A DNA stretch of 44,679 nucleotides from Escherichia phage vB_EcoS_UALMA_PCEc3. The position numbers and the translations under genes are program-made. The notes under the pieces were generated by a model, which searched no databases, had not been told where the DNA came from, and was given only the letters and a program-made list of their open reading frames with translations. The stretch lies in sequence record PQ314493; one strand, written 5' to 3'. Each line of letters begins with the position of its first letter. Within the stretch, counting starts at the first letter, position 1. Below are positions 29,933 to 34,138 of the stretch, piece after piece.

Positions 29933-29955
29933 TAAAAAAACCTCCCGAAGGAGGT
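29933..29955 (-). terminator. rho-independent terminator (minus strand) after primase gene
   Basis: minus-sense hairpin aacctccttcgggaggtt followed by T-run. Confidence 0.6.
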
Positions 29956-30878
29956 TAGTCTAGTAATTCGCTTGCTTTGTATATTCGCTTTCTTATGCCT
30001 GACTTGAAAAAATTATCATCATTTGGCATTACCACATCAAGATTGCGATCGTCAGCAACAGCGAGTAAATCAAAATCGTGGCGAGTACAAGCGACGCGTA
30101 ACTTGTAGTTTCTAAGCGCATAAGCAACCATTTCCATGTTGTAGCTGGAGTGGCAAACAAGCACGCAGCGGTTGCCAGTAGCAATGTGAACGCGATAGCC
30201 GTCAATGAGATTATCGACCAGATAAGCGTACTCATCATCTTTAAAGGCGCCAATAATAGAAACAGACTGGCGAGTATAATCTTTTGCAGCATAGCTAACA
30301 TCTCCATCTTCATTGATAAACATTACATTGCACATATCATCTGATATGCCGTCACTATAAGCCATAAAGCACGGTACTGCGTGTATTAGTTCGCCTGATT
30401 TAGTCCTGCCAACATCAAAACCAAATTCGCTATAGATACCCTCGTATATACTGAGCGGTGTTGATTCTACTCTTTCCGTCCTTTCCATTATCTCAAGGCA
30501 TCTTTCGTGGTCAATCTGCGCGCCCATTTTATAAAGCTTAGTTCTTGATGCTTGCTTGTTTGCCTTGTTGACAACCTCTACAGGAATGAGGTTTAACCAC
30601 TCACCTAGAGTGTCAATACATTCACTGAATGACTCCCCTCGCATCTTCTGCAGCCACAAAATTCCATCGCCTGAGCCGCACTGGTTGCAGATAATGCCAC
30701 CATCACCTTCTTCGCTAACCTTGTTGGTCCACCTGGCCCTGTCGTTACCGCCGCAATAAATGCATGGTTGATGCTTTTTGGTCTGGAAAAACCTAGGGTC
30801 TGCTCCGCAAATGTTTATAAGCGCCTTATCCCACATGCCGCGCATTCTTGGTAGAACCTCTTTCTTATCGTAGTGCAT
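29955..30878 (-). CDS. DNA primase (zinc-ribbon + TOPRIM-like, putative)
   Basis: CIYCGG...CNQCGSG zinc-binding motif; acidic DD cluster downstream. Confidence 0.55.
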   Translation of the reverse strand: MHYDKKEVLPRMRGMWDKALINICGADPRFFQTKKHQPCIYCGGNDRARWTNKVSEEGDGGIICNQCGSGDGILWLQKMRGESFSECIDTLGEWLNLIPVEVVNKANKQASRTKLYKMGAQIDHERCLEIMERTERVESTPLSIYEGIYSEFGFDVGRTKSGELIHAVPCFMAYSDGISDDMCNVMFINEDGDVSYAAKDYTRQSVSIIGAFKDDEYAYLVDNLIDGYRVHIATGNRCVLVCHSSYNMEMVAYALRNYKLRVACTRHDFDLLAVADDRNLDVVMPNDDNFFKSGIRKRIYKASELLD

Positions 30879-30936: not shown

Positions 30937-31410
30937 TTACTCTTTAGCTTTTCGTGCTGCTTCGTTAGCCGCCTTAATCTTGCGCCAGGAGCGACACTCT
31001 GGCTTGGTTGCTAGCTCCGCCTCAGTAACCACGCGCAGCATGTGACGCTTTTTGCAGCGCAGGGTTAGAGGCTTTCCGTTGCCATCGAATTGCAGATCTG
31101 GTCGGCAGAATGTAGCGCGAAAACCTTTTCCATTTCGCTTATAGTAGTTGTGCGACAACTGAGCGCCACGCGCAGAAATCATCCCACGCTTAAACCATTC
31201 TTCTACAGCCTGAGGTGTCACCTTTAACTGCTTTGCGATATTTGCCTTTGTGCCGAAGAAATCAAGAACAATCTCTAGCCGCGAGCGTAGCCCGGCTCTT
31301 ACTTCATCTTTTAAAACATAGTAGCCTGAAGGTCGTTTACGTTGCTTTTTGTCTTCGGTGCGGATGGTTCCGTTATTGCCGTTAATGGTTCGCTTGTCAA
31401 CTGCACTCAT
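30937..31410 (-). CDS. HTH DNA-binding protein (putative transcriptional regulator)
   Basis: HTH-like segment NIAKQLKVTPQAVEEWFKRG; basic; first gene of minus-strand operon. Confidence 0.5.
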   Translation of the reverse strand: MSAVDKRTINGNNGTIRTEDKKQRKRPSGYYVLKDEVRAGLRSRLEIVLDFFGTKANIAKQLKVTPQAVEEWFKRGMISARGAQLSHNYYKRNGKGFRATFCRPDLQFDGNGKPLTLRCKKRHMLRVVTEAELATKPECRSWRKIKAANEAARKAKE

Positions 31411-31511: not shown

Positions 31512-33722
31512 ATGTTGCCTATCGAGAAGCTGGTTGCAAACTTCGATAAAGAAAGAATCAAGCAGATTCAGAAAGACTATCAGTTTGGTGAGATAACCCC
31601 TTACGAGTTTCAGTGCGTGACATTTGATGCAATCGGAAAGGCTATTGGGAAGTACGAAGCACCATTTATCGCAGACCTTTCCGTATCGGCTGGTAAGACA
31701 ATCATCCTGGCTATGATTGGAAAGCGTATGGAGCAGCTTGGTCTTCCTTATATGGTTCTATCTCGACAGTCAGAGATAATCAGCCAGAACTCAGAAGAGC
31801 TTCGTAATTTCGGCATCCGTAACAGCGTCTATTGCGCTGGCCTTAACGTTAAATCGGTTTACTATCCAACCATAGTTGCCAGCGAGGGTACGGCTGCTAA
31901 CGGATTGTTTAAGGGGCTTGGTGACTATGTTCCGGCTGTTATAGCTATCGATGAGTGTCATATGGTGGACCACATGGATATCGTGGAAGCCGAAGAGAAC
32001 GAAGAAACATTTGAGCAAATGAGCACAAAGAAAGGCGAGATGGTTTTCAAGGATGGTGTTAACACTGGATTAATTGGCACTGGTCGAGCTCAGTACACGC
32101 TAATTATCACTGAGATGAAACGTCGCTGCCGTGAGAAATACGGGAGGGAGCTTAGGATTTTTGGACTAACTGGTAGCCCGTATCGTAACAACGATCATAT
32201 CGTCGTTAGCAACCCAAACATCCGTGGATTCTGGCGCAAGACGGTTATTCAGGTTCCAACCAATTACCTGGTTGATTTAGGTTTCGTTGTTCCCACTGTT
32301 TACGGTGAGGTTGGCGATTTGGGTTATGACCTTGCTGAGTTCGCGCCGGATGGCAGCGATGGTGTGAAAGACTTCAGCAAAAAAGAAATGGATGCTATGC
32401 AGGAAAAAATTCATCAAAACCAGTCCATGACTCAAAAGATTATGCAGTTCGCAGCCAAGTTTATGGAAACTCGTAACGCAGCACTAGTAACTTGCTCAGG
32501 CAAGCGGCATTGCGAGGAAGCAGCCGCGGCGCTTCCTGAGGGTGTAACCTGGGCTATAGTAACTGACTCGACTGGTGAGAAAAAGCGTCGTGAGATTCTT
32601 TCTGACGCAGCTGAAGGTAAGTATACATTCATCTTTCAGATTGGTTGCCTCACAACCGGCGTGAACGTTCCGCCATGGGACACGTCAATAATTCTTCGAA
32701 AGGTTGGTAGCATCACGTTACTGATTCAGCTTTTGGGGCGAGGTATGCGAATCCTTAAGAAGAAACATAAAGAGATGGGGATGGTTAAAAATGACCACGT
32801 AGTTTTAGATTTCGCTGGCACTCTTGATGACATGGCAGAATTATACTTTGACCCAATCATAGAGAAGGTTCAGGATCAGAAATTCAAGTTATCAATGATG
32901 CTTAGTGATAAGCCAAGAGTGTGCCCAGAGTGTTCTTACGAAAATCCTCATTCTGCAGGTCGCTGTAATAATGTGATTTCCGGTAAGCGATGCGAGCACT
33001 TCTTTAAGTTTAAATTATGTGAAGATGTAGTTGACCCGAAGACAAAAGTTATCATTAAGAAGGGTTGCGGAGCGAAGAATGATGTTAAGGCAAAGAGTTG
33101 TCGATGCTGTGGAGAGATGCTTGCGGAGCCGAGAATTTGCCCAGCTTGTTCTTATGAGAACTTCCCATCCGCACGCCGTTGCAATAACTTAATTGAAGGT
33201 AAACGATGTGAGCACTTCTTTCAGTTCACAACTTGCGAAGACATTAAGGACCCGCAAACTAAATCGGTAATTAAAAAGGGATGTGGCGCTCGTAACGATA
33301 TAGCAGCAAAGGCTTGTCGGGAGTGTGGTGAGATGCTTAAAGACCCGAATGTTAACCTGACTGGCAAGATGTATCGTCGTGGTGATTACCTTCGTGTTTA
33401 TGATTTTCAAGTTGGGTTAAGTAAGAATCAGACAGGCGTTGTAGTTAAGTACAATATCATGGCTCATAACGGAGAGAGATTTAACGCTTGGGAGTTCTTT
33501 AATCCAGAATCAGACCATAGAGTTTGCAGTGTGCTGTGGAAAAACTTTTGCCTTGCTCACATTGAAAATCGCGCTGAAGCTGCACGGATTGGTAGGCTGA
33601 AAAATTCTAGGATGATTATGACTAACGTAGATAAGTTTCGCACCCCTGTTCAGGTAACGCACCGCAAGAATAGCAAAGGAAAGGACGTGATAGCTTTTAA
33701 GAACTTTGGAGAATTGTTATGA
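31512..33722 (+). CDS. SF2 DECH-box helicase with tandem C-terminal zinc-ribbon modules
   Basis: Walker A SAGKT, DECH box (AIDECHMV), two ~72-aa Cys-rich repeats. Confidence 0.75.
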   Translation: MLPIEKLVANFDKERIKQIQKDYQFGEITPYEFQCVTFDAIGKAIGKYEAPFIADLSVSAGKTIILAMIGKRMEQLGLPYMVLSRQSEIISQNSEELRNFGIRNSVYCAGLNVKSVYYPTIVASEGTAANGLFKGLGDYVPAVIAIDECHMVDHMDIVEAEENEETFEQMSTKKGEMVFKDGVNTGLIGTGRAQYTLIITEMKRRCREKYGRELRIFGLTGSPYRNNDHIVVSNPNIRGFWRKTVIQVPTNYLVDLGFVVPTVYGEVGDLGYDLAEFAPDGSDGVKDFSKKEMDAMQEKIHQNQSMTQKIMQFAAKFMETRNAALVTCSGKRHCEEAAAALPEGVTWAIVTDSTGEKKRREILSDAAEGKYTFIFQIGCLTTGVNVPPWDTSIILRKVGSITLLIQLLGRGMRILKKKHKEMGMVKNDHVVLDFAGTLDDMAELYFDPIIEKVQDQKFKLSMMLSDKPRVCPECSYENPHSAGRCNNVISGKRCEHFFKFKLCEDVVDPKTKVIIKKGCGAKNDVKAKSCRCCGEMLAEPRICPACSYENFPSARRCNNLIEGKRCEHFFQFTTCEDIKDPQTKSVIKKGCGARNDIAAKACRECGEMLKDPNVNLTGKMYRRGDYLRVYDFQVGLSKNQTGVVVKYNIMAHNGERFNAWEFFNPESDHRVCSVLWKNFCLAHIENRAEAARIGRLKNSRMIMTNVDKFRTPVQVTHRKNSKGKDVIAFKNFGELL

Positions 33723-34138
33723 ATATTAAAGATAAAGAAGATTACATTGAGTTCTACCCGGGTCCTGTTAAATCATGCCCAAAGGAGGATGACGAACAAA
33801 TCTTTTGCTCTGATTGGGTTAAGTATAACTACCCGGAGATGGTATTTTTCCACTGCGTAAATGAGGGGAAGAAAACCATTGGACAGGCAAGAAAGGACCA
33901 GGCTAAAGGGCTACTTAAAGGCGTGTCAGACTGCATGTTTCTTATTCCCGAGTCTCTGCGAGGCAAATACCCTTTCGGAGCTATAGAGCTGAAGAGGGCT
34001 GGCAAAACTCAGGCTAGCCCAGTCAGTGACGAGCAGAAGTCTTTCCTTAAAAGCGTGAGAGAATCAGGGGGTTTCGCTGGGGTTGCCTACGGTAGAGAGG
34101 GTTTTCTGGCAGCGTTTAGAGAAATGATTTCAAAATAG
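33719..34138 (+). CDS. VRR-NUC-like PD-(D/E)XK nuclease (putative)
   Basis: D...IELK...SDEQ motif arrangement; ATGA overlap with helicase stop. Confidence 0.5.
   Translation: MNIKDKEDYIEFYPGPVKSCPKEDDEQIFCSDWVKYNYPEMVFFHCVNEGKKTIGQARKDQAKGLLKGVSDCMFLIPESLRGKYPFGAIELKRAGKTQASPVSDEQKSFLKSVRESGGFAGVAYGREGFLAAFREMISK

What the first reader, a model, noticed from the sequence alone, without database searches (positions are those of the whole stretch)
32922..33353. Tandem duplication of a ~72-aa multi-cysteine zinc-ribbon module inside the helicase
Two consecutive in-frame repeats (32922-33137 and 33138-33353) encode CPxCSYEN...RCNN..GKRCEHFF.F..CED..DP.TK..IKKGCGA.ND..AK.CR.CGEML..P, each with about 8 Cys. 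The repeats are diverged at the DNA level, so they are not a recent assembly artefact. Tandem zinc ribbons at a helicase C-terminus could specify DNA-structure or partner (primase) recognition.
Basis: seen in the sequence. Interest (0 to 1): 0.5.

Follow-up and report, generated by a model that had tools for sequence, protein, structure and literature searches.

The report
Duplicated zinc-finger domain in phage helicase
One T1-like phage carries two tandem copies of the zinc-binding, DNA-gripping domain of its RadD-type helicase where every sampled relative has one, and the two copies descend from two different versions of the gene, so this is a rare misaligned recombination product and a modest curiosity, not a new kind of system.

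Summary
Window 32922-33137 and 33138-33353 encode two gap-free 72-aa units, 68% identical in protein (E 3e-38) and 66.7% in DNA. They lie inside a 736-aa ORF (31512-33722, +).

The window is the genome of Pseudomonas phage PsgS01F (PP134917.1), a Drexlerviridae phage. The ORF is a RadD-family SF2 helicase. The repeated unit is the complete RadD-type zinc-finger domain (ZF1+ZF2, 8 invariant Cys). In E. coli RadD this domain, together with the C-terminal domain, binds branched DNA. It sits between the motor and a 122-aa C-terminal domain, not at the C-terminus.

Every relative examined has one unit and a 664-aa protein. Searches for the unit-to-unit junction found only this phage.

The copies are not sisters. 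Copy 1 groups with "type B" alleles (CRCC) and copy 2 with "type A" alleles (CREC) in 495 of 500 bootstraps, and the flanks follow the same split. The likeliest origin is out-of-register recombination between two diverged alleles at a short (D/E)-Pro microhomology that brackets the domain.

Both copies keep all family-invariant residues. The effect on function is untested. I rate it a new variant of a known kind, of modest interest.

The parts
31512..33722 (+). RadD-family SF2 helicase gene, 736 aa. It is annotated 'hypothetical protein' WYA87436.1 in PP134917.1.
   Evidence: ORF; record annotation; PHROG 16 'DNA helicase' E 4e-75; E. coli RadD 6jde E 1.3e-29 in three stretches; Foldseek best match RadD 7r7j E 6e-32, next family 4e-13.
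31593..31970 (+). RecA-like domain 1, with motif I (SAGKT, aa 59-63) and motif II (DECH, aa 147-150).
   Evidence: RadD stretch 1, query 30-153; weak Pfam ResIII hit at aa 28-152; G61, K62, T63, D147, E148 and H150 are invariant in 76 homologues.
32136..32831 (+). RecA-like domain 2 (Helicase_C).
   Evidence: RadD stretch 2, query 209-440; Pfam Helicase_C at aa 318-414, 36.7 bits against a cutoff of 23.5.
32366..33137 (+). Class-B-derived segment: the 3' part of the motor, the linker and copy 1.
   Evidence: Sliding DNA identity is 95-98% to the P0001 contig at gene nt 855-1100 and 86-88% to SCS31 across the linker and the first 120 nt of copy 1. Identity to class-A phages over the same stretch is only 62-70%.
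32922..33137 (+). Copy 1 of the zinc-finger domain (aa 471-542), type B (NNVI, CRCC).
   Evidence: Nearest DNA is vB_EcoS_SCS31, 82.9% over 198 nt. It groups with type-B modules in 495/500 bootstraps. It keeps all 17 family-invariant residues, including 8 Cys. AF2 with an alignment gives pLDDT 88-90 across most of the module, falling to about 80 at its C-terminal end. Its best PDB match is RadD 7r7j, prob 0.91-0.94.
33108..33149 (+). Unit-to-unit junction, CGEML-AEP|RI-CPAC.
   Evidence: The degenerate junction pattern matches here once. It matches nowhere in IMG/VR, the JGI metagenomes or the GTDB genomes. The residues EPRI-CP reproduce the normal upstream context of the module, (D/E)P(R/K)x-C.
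33138..33353 (+). Copy 2 of the zinc-finger domain (aa 543-614). Its first ~84 nt are type-B-like and the remaining 132 nt are type A (CREC).
   Evidence: Nearest DNA is Veterinaerplatzvirus T145P1, 81.7% over 199 nt. nt 85-216 are 88% identical to 2725-N35/T145P1, and nt 1-84 are about 80% identical to ES, P818 and ACG-M12. HMMER aligns aa 542-619 to RadD 383-465. pLDDT is 68-84 in the full-length model.
33354..33719 (+). C-terminal domain (aa 615-736), class-A-derived.
   Evidence: 94-95% aa identity to AugustePiccard, 2725-N35 and T145P1, against 62% to class-B proteins. DNA identity to 2725-N35 is 94-97% directly after copy 2. pLDDT is about 90.
33719..34138 (+). Downstream VRR-NUC nuclease gene, whose start overlaps the helicase stop. 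Included as context.
   Evidence: ORF; PHROG 824; PF08774 VRR_NUC on the syntenic gene of relatives.

Best explanation
The PsgS01F helicase is a RadD-type SF2 enzyme. Its whole zinc-finger domain (ZF1 + ZF2, 72 aa, 8 Cys, two predicted Zn sites) is present twice in tandem, so four Zn sites are predicted.

Origin (inferred from phylogeny and flanks). Two diverged alleles of the gene circulate among Braunvirinae phages. They differ from about gene nt 900 to the 3' end, and they also recombine in register inside this domain. The duplication is best explained by an out-of-register exchange. The 3' edge of the domain in a type-B allele (...CGEML-x-D-P|N...) was joined to the 5' edge of the domain in another allele (...(D/E)-P|R-I-C-P-A-C...). 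The join fell at the short (D/E)-Pro-codon microhomology that brackets the domain in all relatives. This added exactly 216 nt in frame. The copies came from different alleles, are only 67% identical and share no run longer than 12 nt. Homologous recombination therefore cannot easily collapse the duplication, which would help it persist.

Function (inferred from RadD biochemistry, not tested here). Copy 2 and the C-terminal domain share class-A ancestry, so they most likely rebuild the canonical ZFD-CTD groove that binds branched DNA. Copy 1 would then be an extra, foldable zinc-finger domain between the motor and that groove. It would act as an additional DNA contact or spacer, or as a tolerated passenger.
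For: Real repeat.

RadD homology of the unit and of the whole protein. RadD ZF1/ZF2 definition and the loss of function in C437A: PMC9049331. ZFD and CTD bind branched DNA: PMC9821108.

Single copy everywhere else:
- Relatives have 1995-nt genes and 664-aa proteins with a clean 72-aa gap.
- Of the 120 best hits in a 5.8-billion-protein database, 114 have exactly one module by regex and none has two.
- The module is found in 1433 phage records, but only PsgS01F gives a collinear ZF2-to-ZF1 match.
- Junction patterns are absent from IMG/VR, JGI metagenomes and GTDB genomes.
- The listed members of the closest 90% cluster are 664 aa, plus one 569-aa fragment.

Heteroallelic ancestry:
- The split {type B + copy 1} | {type A + copy 2} is recovered in 495/500 bootstraps, and the copies are sister in 3/500.
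- Divergence between the copies (pN 0.21, pS 0.80, saturated) equals that between type-A and type-B alleles of single-copy phages (pN 0.18-0.22).
- The upstream flank is class B and the downstream flank is class A.
- In-register A/B recombinants within the module exist: P0004 and P0006.

Junction keeps the upstream context EPRI-CP.

Both copies look intact. All invariant residues are kept. Copy 1 alone is modelled at pLDDT 88-90 across most of the module. dN/dS against the nearest alleles is 0.09-0.14.
Against: Neither parental allele is sampled. The nearest modules are only 76-79% identical over 216 nt, so the breakpoint is known only to about 2 codons, and the Ala codon GCG at the joint matches neither context.

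Copy 2 is itself a B/A mosaic. More than one recombination event is therefore needed, and the order of events (heteroallelic unequal exchange, or duplication first and patch replacement later) cannot be resolved.

Copy 1 has the most private residues of 37 distinct modules (9 of 70), and its net charge is +4 against -1 to +3 in 20 close relatives. This could mean drift after duplication.

Conservation of both copies mostly reflects their earlier history as single-copy alleles. It does not prove that both are used now.

No reads were available to verify the assembly. No coordinates were available to check Cys-Zn geometry or domain packing. In the full-length AF2 model copy 1 is below pLDDT 50 because no homologue aligns to it.
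Confidence: 0.7

Rival explanations
1. In-situ tandem duplication of one allele, followed by slow divergence of the two copies in this lineage. This is the history the first reader implied.
For: The period is exact, in frame and gap-free at 216 nt. Both copies sit on long terminal branches.
Against: The copies are sister in only 3/500 bootstraps, and each groups with a different allele type of single-copy phages. Synonymous sites between the copies are saturated (pS 0.80), whereas flanking DNA is 94-98% identical to sampled relatives. Even the first 84 nt of the two copies have different nearest relatives: SCS31 at 87% for copy 1 and ES/P818 at 80-81% for copy 2. No relative at any distance has two copies.
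Confidence: 0.07
2. Assembly or consensus artefact. The lysate held two related phages carrying type-A and type-B alleles, and the assembler threaded both versions of the variable domain one after the other.
For: The gene is a patchwork of at least three lineages. The arrangement exists in a single GenBank record and nowhere else. The record also carries an odd host label. No reads could be checked.
Against: The joint is exactly in frame and leaves one intact 736-aa ORF. A back-link from the end of one allele's domain to the start of the other's would need shared k-mers, but the two edges share only a 5-7 nt microhomology. The joint sequence AEPRI-CPAC is a sensible hybrid of the normal downstream and upstream contexts. 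Mosaicism of this kind is also seen in independent single-copy genomes such as P0004 and P0006.
Confidence: 0.1
3. The two-copy state is ancestral. Type-A and type-B alleles are then paralogous copies retained after reciprocal losses, and PsgS01F alone keeps both.
For: This would also place copy 1 with type B and copy 2 with type A.
Against: The A/B divergence is not confined to the domain. It runs from about gene nt 900 to the stop codon, which is a property of alleles and not of domain paralogues. More distant Drexlerviridae, Klebsiella, Vibrio and Salmonella phages, and E. coli RadD itself, all have one domain. This history would need many independent, precise losses.
Confidence: 0.02

Closest known systems
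E. coli RadD (YejH), PDB 6JDE / 7R7J / 8H5Y
   Same: SF2 motor with motifs I (GKT) and II (DECH), followed by a Cys-rich ZF1+ZF2 zinc-finger domain and then a C-terminal domain. Sequence E-value is 1.3e-29 across RD1, RD2 and the zinc region. It is by far the best structural match. In RadD the ZFD and CTD bind branched DNA, and a ZF2 Cys mutant is null in vivo (PMC9821108, PMC9049331).
   Different: RadD has one ZFD and this protein has two. In the phage module the first ZF2 knuckle is KKGC rather than CPQC. An extra invariant Cys (RRC, C485/C557) presumably replaces the missing ligand. Overall identity is only about 20%. SSB binding by the phage CTD is untested.
Single-ZFD helicases of Drexlerviridae (for example Rtp rtp53, AugustePiccard bas01_0042, SCS31, Sd1 gp14; 664 aa)
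   Same: Orthologous gene in the same divergent primase / regulator / helicase / VRR-NUC arrangement. They are 84-94% identical outside the duplicated unit.
   Different: They carry exactly one ZFD, of type A, type B or an in-register A/B recombinant. PsgS01F has one of each type in tandem (+72 aa).
P0133, a 719-aa metagenomic homologue with an insertion of roughly 90 aa between ZF1 and ZF2
   Same: It shows that the zinc region of this helicase family tolerates large in-frame additions.
   Different: The addition is unrelated sequence inserted within one ZFD, not a second ZFD.
Zinc-binding subdomain of RecQ-family helicases
   Same: A Cys4 zinc module directly after the two RecA domains, implicated in DNA binding and folding. 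PMC9049331 makes this comparison.
   Different: No detectable sequence relationship here, and a different fold context (RecQ C-terminal/WH). This is an analogy only.

Membership tests
RadD-family SF2 helicase/ATPase | Two RecA-like domains with Walker A (GxGKS/T) and DECH motif II | tested here: met
   SAGKT at aa 59-63 and DECH at aa 147-150 align to the RadD motifs. They are invariant in 76 homologues. Helicase_C scores above the Pfam cutoff.
RadD-family SF2 helicase/ATPase | Significant sequence similarity to E. coli RadD across motor and zinc region | tested here: met
   phmmer E 1.3e-29 with three stretches, including query 542-619 against RadD 383-465.
RadD-family SF2 helicase/ATPase | Overall fold closest to RadD | tested here: met
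   Foldseek against the PDB: ranks 1-8 are all RadD chains, E 6e-32 to 3e-26. The next family scores 4e-13.
RadD-family SF2 helicase/ATPase | ZF1 (Cys384/387/411/425) and ZF2 (Cys434/437/448/451) zinc sites between RD2 and the CTD | tested here: inconclusive
   There are eight invariant Cys per unit. The ZF1 ligands and three ZF2 ligands align. The C434 equivalent is Lys/Gly, and an extra Cys (C485/C557) is present. The coordination geometry could not be checked because no model coordinates were available.
RadD-family SF2 helicase/ATPase | A single zinc-finger domain per chain | tested here: not met
   There are two tandem ZFDs. This is the point of difference, so I call it a variant and not a typical member.
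RadD-family SF2 helicase/ATPase | C-terminal domain that binds the SSB C-terminal tail; ATPase without detectable unwinding | not testable with these tools
   These are biochemical properties (PMC9821108). The phage CTD had no significant Pfam hit.
Pfam DZR (double zinc ribbon, PF12773) | Score above the gathering threshold of 27.3 bits | tested here: inconclusive
   The whole protein scores 28.0 bits, just above the cutoff. The best stretch is aa 519-559, which spans the junction (ZF2 of copy 1 plus the first knuckle of copy 2). Each unit alone scores below the cutoff, at 16.5 and 19.4 bits. Single-copy relatives carry no precomputed DZR hit. The hit is therefore largely created by the duplication.
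Recent in-situ tandem duplication | The copies are each other's closest relatives | tested here: not met
   The copies are sister in 3/500 bootstraps. In DNA identity the other copy ranks 11th of 21 for copy 1 and 20th of 21 for copy 2.

The most novel reading that the evidence does not exclude
The second zinc-finger domain is adaptive. A helicase with two differently derived ZFDs (one unusually basic, net +4) would gain a new or broader DNA-junction or partner specificity. Possible benefits are working with a different host replication/SSB machinery or evading a defence system that senses the phage's replication-recombination complex. That would make it a natural example of a new function arising from a heteroallelic domain duplication in a phage replication protein.
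Probability: 0.1. Interest if true: 0.55.

Novelty: new variant of a known kind. Interest (0 to 1): 0.3.

Why it matters
It is a clean natural example of how phage mosaicism can change domain architecture and not only swap alleles. A misaligned exchange between two diverged alleles yields an in-frame duplication of a whole domain. Because the copies are only 67% identical, the duplication is protected from recombinational collapse from the start.

It also offers a ready-made test of what the RadD zinc-finger domain does. One-ZFD and two-ZFD helicases with otherwise near-identical motors and C-terminal domains already exist in closely related phages.

In practical terms, the gene is annotated 'hypothetical protein' in GenBank and should be named a RadD-like DNA helicase.

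Tried and rejected
- DNA-level repeat finders (TRF; seed-and-extend direct repeats) do not report the 216-nt repeat. It is too diverged. Protein and global DNA alignment were used instead.
- The search of 1.84 billion cluster representatives with one unit returned only 22 hits. The multi-stretch hits were one ZFD split by an insertion (P0133), generic zinc-ribbon repeats (P0129, P0140) or a spurious match (P0139). Clustering at 50% would hide two-copy variants, so this search was not decisive.
- A relaxed junction pattern gave 7 IMG/VR hits. All were chance matches in non-coding or unrelated frames.
- I tried to make MAFFT place homologues on copy 1 of a two-unit query by adding upstream flanks (A4). 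It still aligned everything to copy 2. Copy 1 was therefore modelled separately.
- I looked for a link to anti-phage defence triggers in T1-like phages (Stokar-Avihail et al. preprint). No escape mutations are reported in this helicase.
- No paper mentions PsgS01F.
- Elevated net charge and private substitutions in copy 1, taken as signs of adaptation, fall within the range of the family. I treat them as weak evidence only.
- Primase-partner recognition was rejected for lack of any evidence.
Full report
**Identity of the window.** The window is the complete 44,679-bp genome of Pseudomonas phage PsgS01F (PP134917.1), read as its reverse complement. The finding lies in the ORF at 31512-33722 (+), 736 aa, which the record annotates as 'hypothetical protein'. 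The gene sits in the usual Drexlerviridae replication block. Upstream, on the other strand, are the primase (29955-30878) and a transcriptional regulator (30937-31410). A VRR-NUC nuclease gene (33719-34138) follows, and its start overlaps the helicase stop.

**Check of the observation.** BLASTP of unit 1 against unit 2 gives 49/72 identities, 59/72 positives, no gaps and E 3e-38. The ungapped DNA identity is 66.7%. The longest identical run is 12 nt. TRF and a seed-based repeat finder miss the repeat because it is so diverged.

Two corrections apply.
- The units are aa 471-542 and 543-614 of 736. A well-modelled 122-aa C-terminal domain follows them, so they are not at the C-terminus.

**What the unit is.** The protein matches PHROG 16 'DNA helicase' (E 4e-75) and Pfam Helicase_C. 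Among solved structures it matches E. coli RadD at E 1.3e-29 in three stretches:
- RecA domain 1, with motifs I and II.
- RecA domain 2.
- Query 542-619 against RadD 383-465.

RadD residues 384-451 are the two zinc fingers ZF1 (Cys384/387/411/425) and ZF2 (Cys434/437/448/451). A C437A mutant is inactive in vivo (PMC9049331). Truncation and mutagenesis work shows that the RadD zinc-finger domain and the C-terminal domain are the parts that bind branched DNA, and that the C-terminal domain binds SSB (PMC9821108).

An AlphaFold2 model of the whole protein has mean pLDDT 81.3. Its eight best PDB matches are all RadD chains (E 6e-32 to 3e-26), and the next family scores 4e-13.

The repeated unit is therefore the complete RadD-type zinc-finger domain. 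Its eight Cys are invariant in 76 homologues. The phage version differs from RadD in one respect. The first ZF2 knuckle has one Cys (KKGC) instead of two, and there is an extra invariant Cys in 'RRC'. I could not check the coordination geometry.

**Only this phage has two units.**
- Relatives in the phage collection match the gene in two pieces that span exactly 1995 nt, against 2211 nt here.
- The AugustePiccard and BEK6 proteins are 664 aa and align with a clean 72-aa gap.
- In a search of 5.8 billion proteins, the 120 best hits are 557-706 aa. By regex 114 have exactly one module and none has two.
- tblastn finds the module in 1433 phage records from Escherichia, Klebsiella, Vibrio, Salmonella and other hosts. 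In every listed record both halves of the query fall on one 213-306-nt place.
- With a query that spans the junction (ZF2 of copy 1 followed by ZF1 of copy 2), PsgS01F is the only one of 50,697 records covered to 80% or more.
- A degenerate junction pattern matches the window once. It matches nothing in IMG/VR, the JGI metagenomes or the GTDB genomes. A looser pattern gave only chance hits.
- The exact protein is not in the 15-billion-sequence collection. The listed members of the closest cluster are 664 aa, plus one 569-aa fragment.

**The copies have different ancestry.** Single-copy relatives fall into two allele classes that differ from about gene nt 900 to the stop codon.
- Class B: P0001, SCS31, Sd1, ECH1, ES. 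Their module has NNVI, GCGEKND, CRCC and IDPNA.
- Class A: AugustePiccard, 2725-N35, T145P1, BEK6. Their module has (G/S)NKI, CREC and KDPNA.

The PsgS01F protein shows this pattern of identity:

| Segment | Class B | Class A |
|---|---|---|
| aa 312-470 | 91-94% | 69-75% |
| aa 615-736 | 62% | 94-95% |

Sliding DNA identity shows the same pattern, with 95-98% to the P0001 contig upstream and 94-97% to 2725-N35 directly downstream of copy 2.

Copy 1 is a type-B module. Its nearest DNA is SCS31, at 82.9% over 198 nt. Copy 2 is type A over its last 132 nt, at 88% to 2725-N35/T145P1. Its first 84 nt are type-B-like, at about 80% to ES and P818.

In a neighbour-joining analysis of 22 module sequences, the split {type B + copy 1} | {type A + copy 2} appears in 495 of 500 bootstraps. 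The two copies are sister in 3.

Divergence between the copies (pN 0.21; pS 0.80, saturated) matches that between type-A and type-B alleles of single-copy phages (pN 0.18-0.22). Duplication followed by divergence in place is therefore rejected.

Retention of an ancestral two-copy state is also unlikely. The A/B divergence extends well beyond the domain, and all distant relatives, and RadD itself, have one domain.

**The junction.** In all relatives the domain is preceded by ...(D/E)-P-(R/K)-x-C-P... and followed by ...L-x-D-P-N.... The PsgS01F joint reads ...CGEML-A-E-P-R-I-C-P-A-C.... This is the 3' context up to the (D/E)-P codons, followed by the 5' context from P-R-I onward. Phage ES, for comparison, has GDEPRI-CPAC upstream of its module.

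MAFFT aligns the upstream context of 22 homologues onto this joint. The exchange therefore happened at a microhomology of about 5-7 nt, GA(N)CC(N)A. The parental alleles are not sampled, so the breakpoint is known only to about 2 codons, and the Ala codon GCG is unexplained.

In-register A/B crossovers inside the module occur in independent genomes (P0004, P0006) and in copy 2 itself. This shows that the two lineages meet and recombine at this site. PsgS01F looks like the rare out-of-register outcome of the same process. Whether the unequal exchange was itself heteroallelic, or later patch replacements made the copies different, cannot be decided.

**State of the two copies.**
- Both keep all family-invariant residues.
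- Copy 1 modelled alone with an alignment reaches pLDDT 88-90 over most of the module (about 80 at its C-terminal end). Its pattern of short strands resembles that of copy 2, and its best PDB match is the RadD zinc region (prob 0.91-0.94, E about 0.1).
- In the full-length model copy 1 is below pLDDT 50, but only because no homologue aligns to it.
- dN/dS against the nearest alleles is 0.09-0.14.
- Copy 1 has the most private residues of 37 distinct modules (9 of 70). Its net charge is +4, against -1 to +3 in 20 close relatives. Both values lie within the range of the wider family.
- Most differences between copy 2 and 2725-N35 are synonymous (5 aa changes among 16 nt differences). This points to unsampled donors and not to relaxed selection.

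Most of this conservation was inherited from single-copy ancestors. It therefore does not prove that both copies are used now.

**Mechanistic reading.** What is shown: the enzyme is RadD-like and has two complete zinc-finger domains between the motor and the C-terminal domain. What is inferred from RadD: copy 2 and the C-terminal domain share ancestry and form the canonical branched-DNA-binding groove. Copy 1 adds a second zinc-finger domain, with its beta-hairpin, that may contact DNA, lengthen the tether between motor and groove, or simply be tolerated. The low identity between the copies should make the duplication genetically stable.

**Rivals.**
- An assembly artefact cannot be excluded without reads. 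It is unlikely given the exact frame, the sensible hybrid joint and the absence of long shared k-mers that could create a back-link.
- Nothing found here supports primase recognition.

**Verdict.** This is a real, so far unique, heteroallelic tandem duplication of the RadD-type zinc-finger domain in a T1-like phage helicase. It is a new variant of a known kind and of modest interest.

Noticed in passing
window 1-25000 (whole record PP134917.1): The record names Pseudomonas syringae pv. garcae as host. Yet the structural half of the genome, tail-fibre region included, is 93.4% identical over 96% of its length to Escherichia phage vB_EcoS_CEB_EC3a, and all close relatives are E. coli or Shigella Drexlerviridae. 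The host label or the isolation history deserves a check. 'Campylobacter phage A110b' in the same group looks similarly odd.
   Followed up: partly
window 31512-33722: GenBank annotates the 736-aa protein (WYA87436.1) as 'hypothetical protein', whereas its orthologues are annotated as DNA helicase. It should be named a RadD-like SF2 DNA helicase.
   Followed up: yes
window ~32891-32915 (aa 461-468, linker before copy 1): The linker reads LSMMLSDK here and STHDACDK in SCS31. Both share the DNA string ATGATGCTT read in different frames, which indicates a short compensated frameshift of about 4 codons. Other relatives have SSRKGGDE. This ties the linker and copy 1 to an SCS31-like lineage.
   Followed up: partly
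window 32912-32933: TRF reports an 11-nt unit, GCCAAGAGTGT, repeated twice (90% match) across the 5' edge of copy 1. A similar sequence is present in single-copy SCS31, so it is inherited and is not the duplication joint.
   Followed up: partly
window 33066-33188 (aa 519-559): The only above-threshold zinc-ribbon Pfam hit (DZR, 28.0 bits against a cutoff of 27.3) spans the junction: ZF2 of copy 1 plus the first knuckle of copy 2. The hit is thus partly created by the duplication. Single-copy relatives have no DZR hit on record.
   Followed up: yes
P0004 / L009 3001-4995; P0006: Independent single-copy genomes carry in-register type-B/type-A crossovers inside the zinc-finger domain, at about aa 10-16 in P0004 and about aa 50 in P0006. 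The domain is a recurrent recombination crossover point in this phage group.
   Followed up: partly
P0133 (719-aa metagenomic homologue): This homologue has an insertion of roughly 90 aa between the ZF1 and ZF2 halves of its single zinc-finger domain. It is another way in which this region has expanded.
   Followed up: no
L002 395-874; L003 3492-3725; L009 4992-5225: Relatives carry small extra genes that are absent from the window. AugustePiccard has a putative homing endonuclease between the primase and the regulator. BEK6 and the P0004 contig have a 77-aa ORF between the helicase and VRR-NUC. Homing endonucleases could promote the patchy gene conversion seen around the helicase.
   Followed up: no
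L005 (Escherichia phage ES) 1553-3085; L020 (ESCO41): The orthologue in phage ES is annotated 'putative single-stranded DNA binding protein', and its first ~400 nt are unrelated to the other helicases (22-41% identity). In ESCO41 the 3' part is annotated 'double zinc ribbon protein'. These are probably annotation or genome-start artefacts.
   Followed up: no
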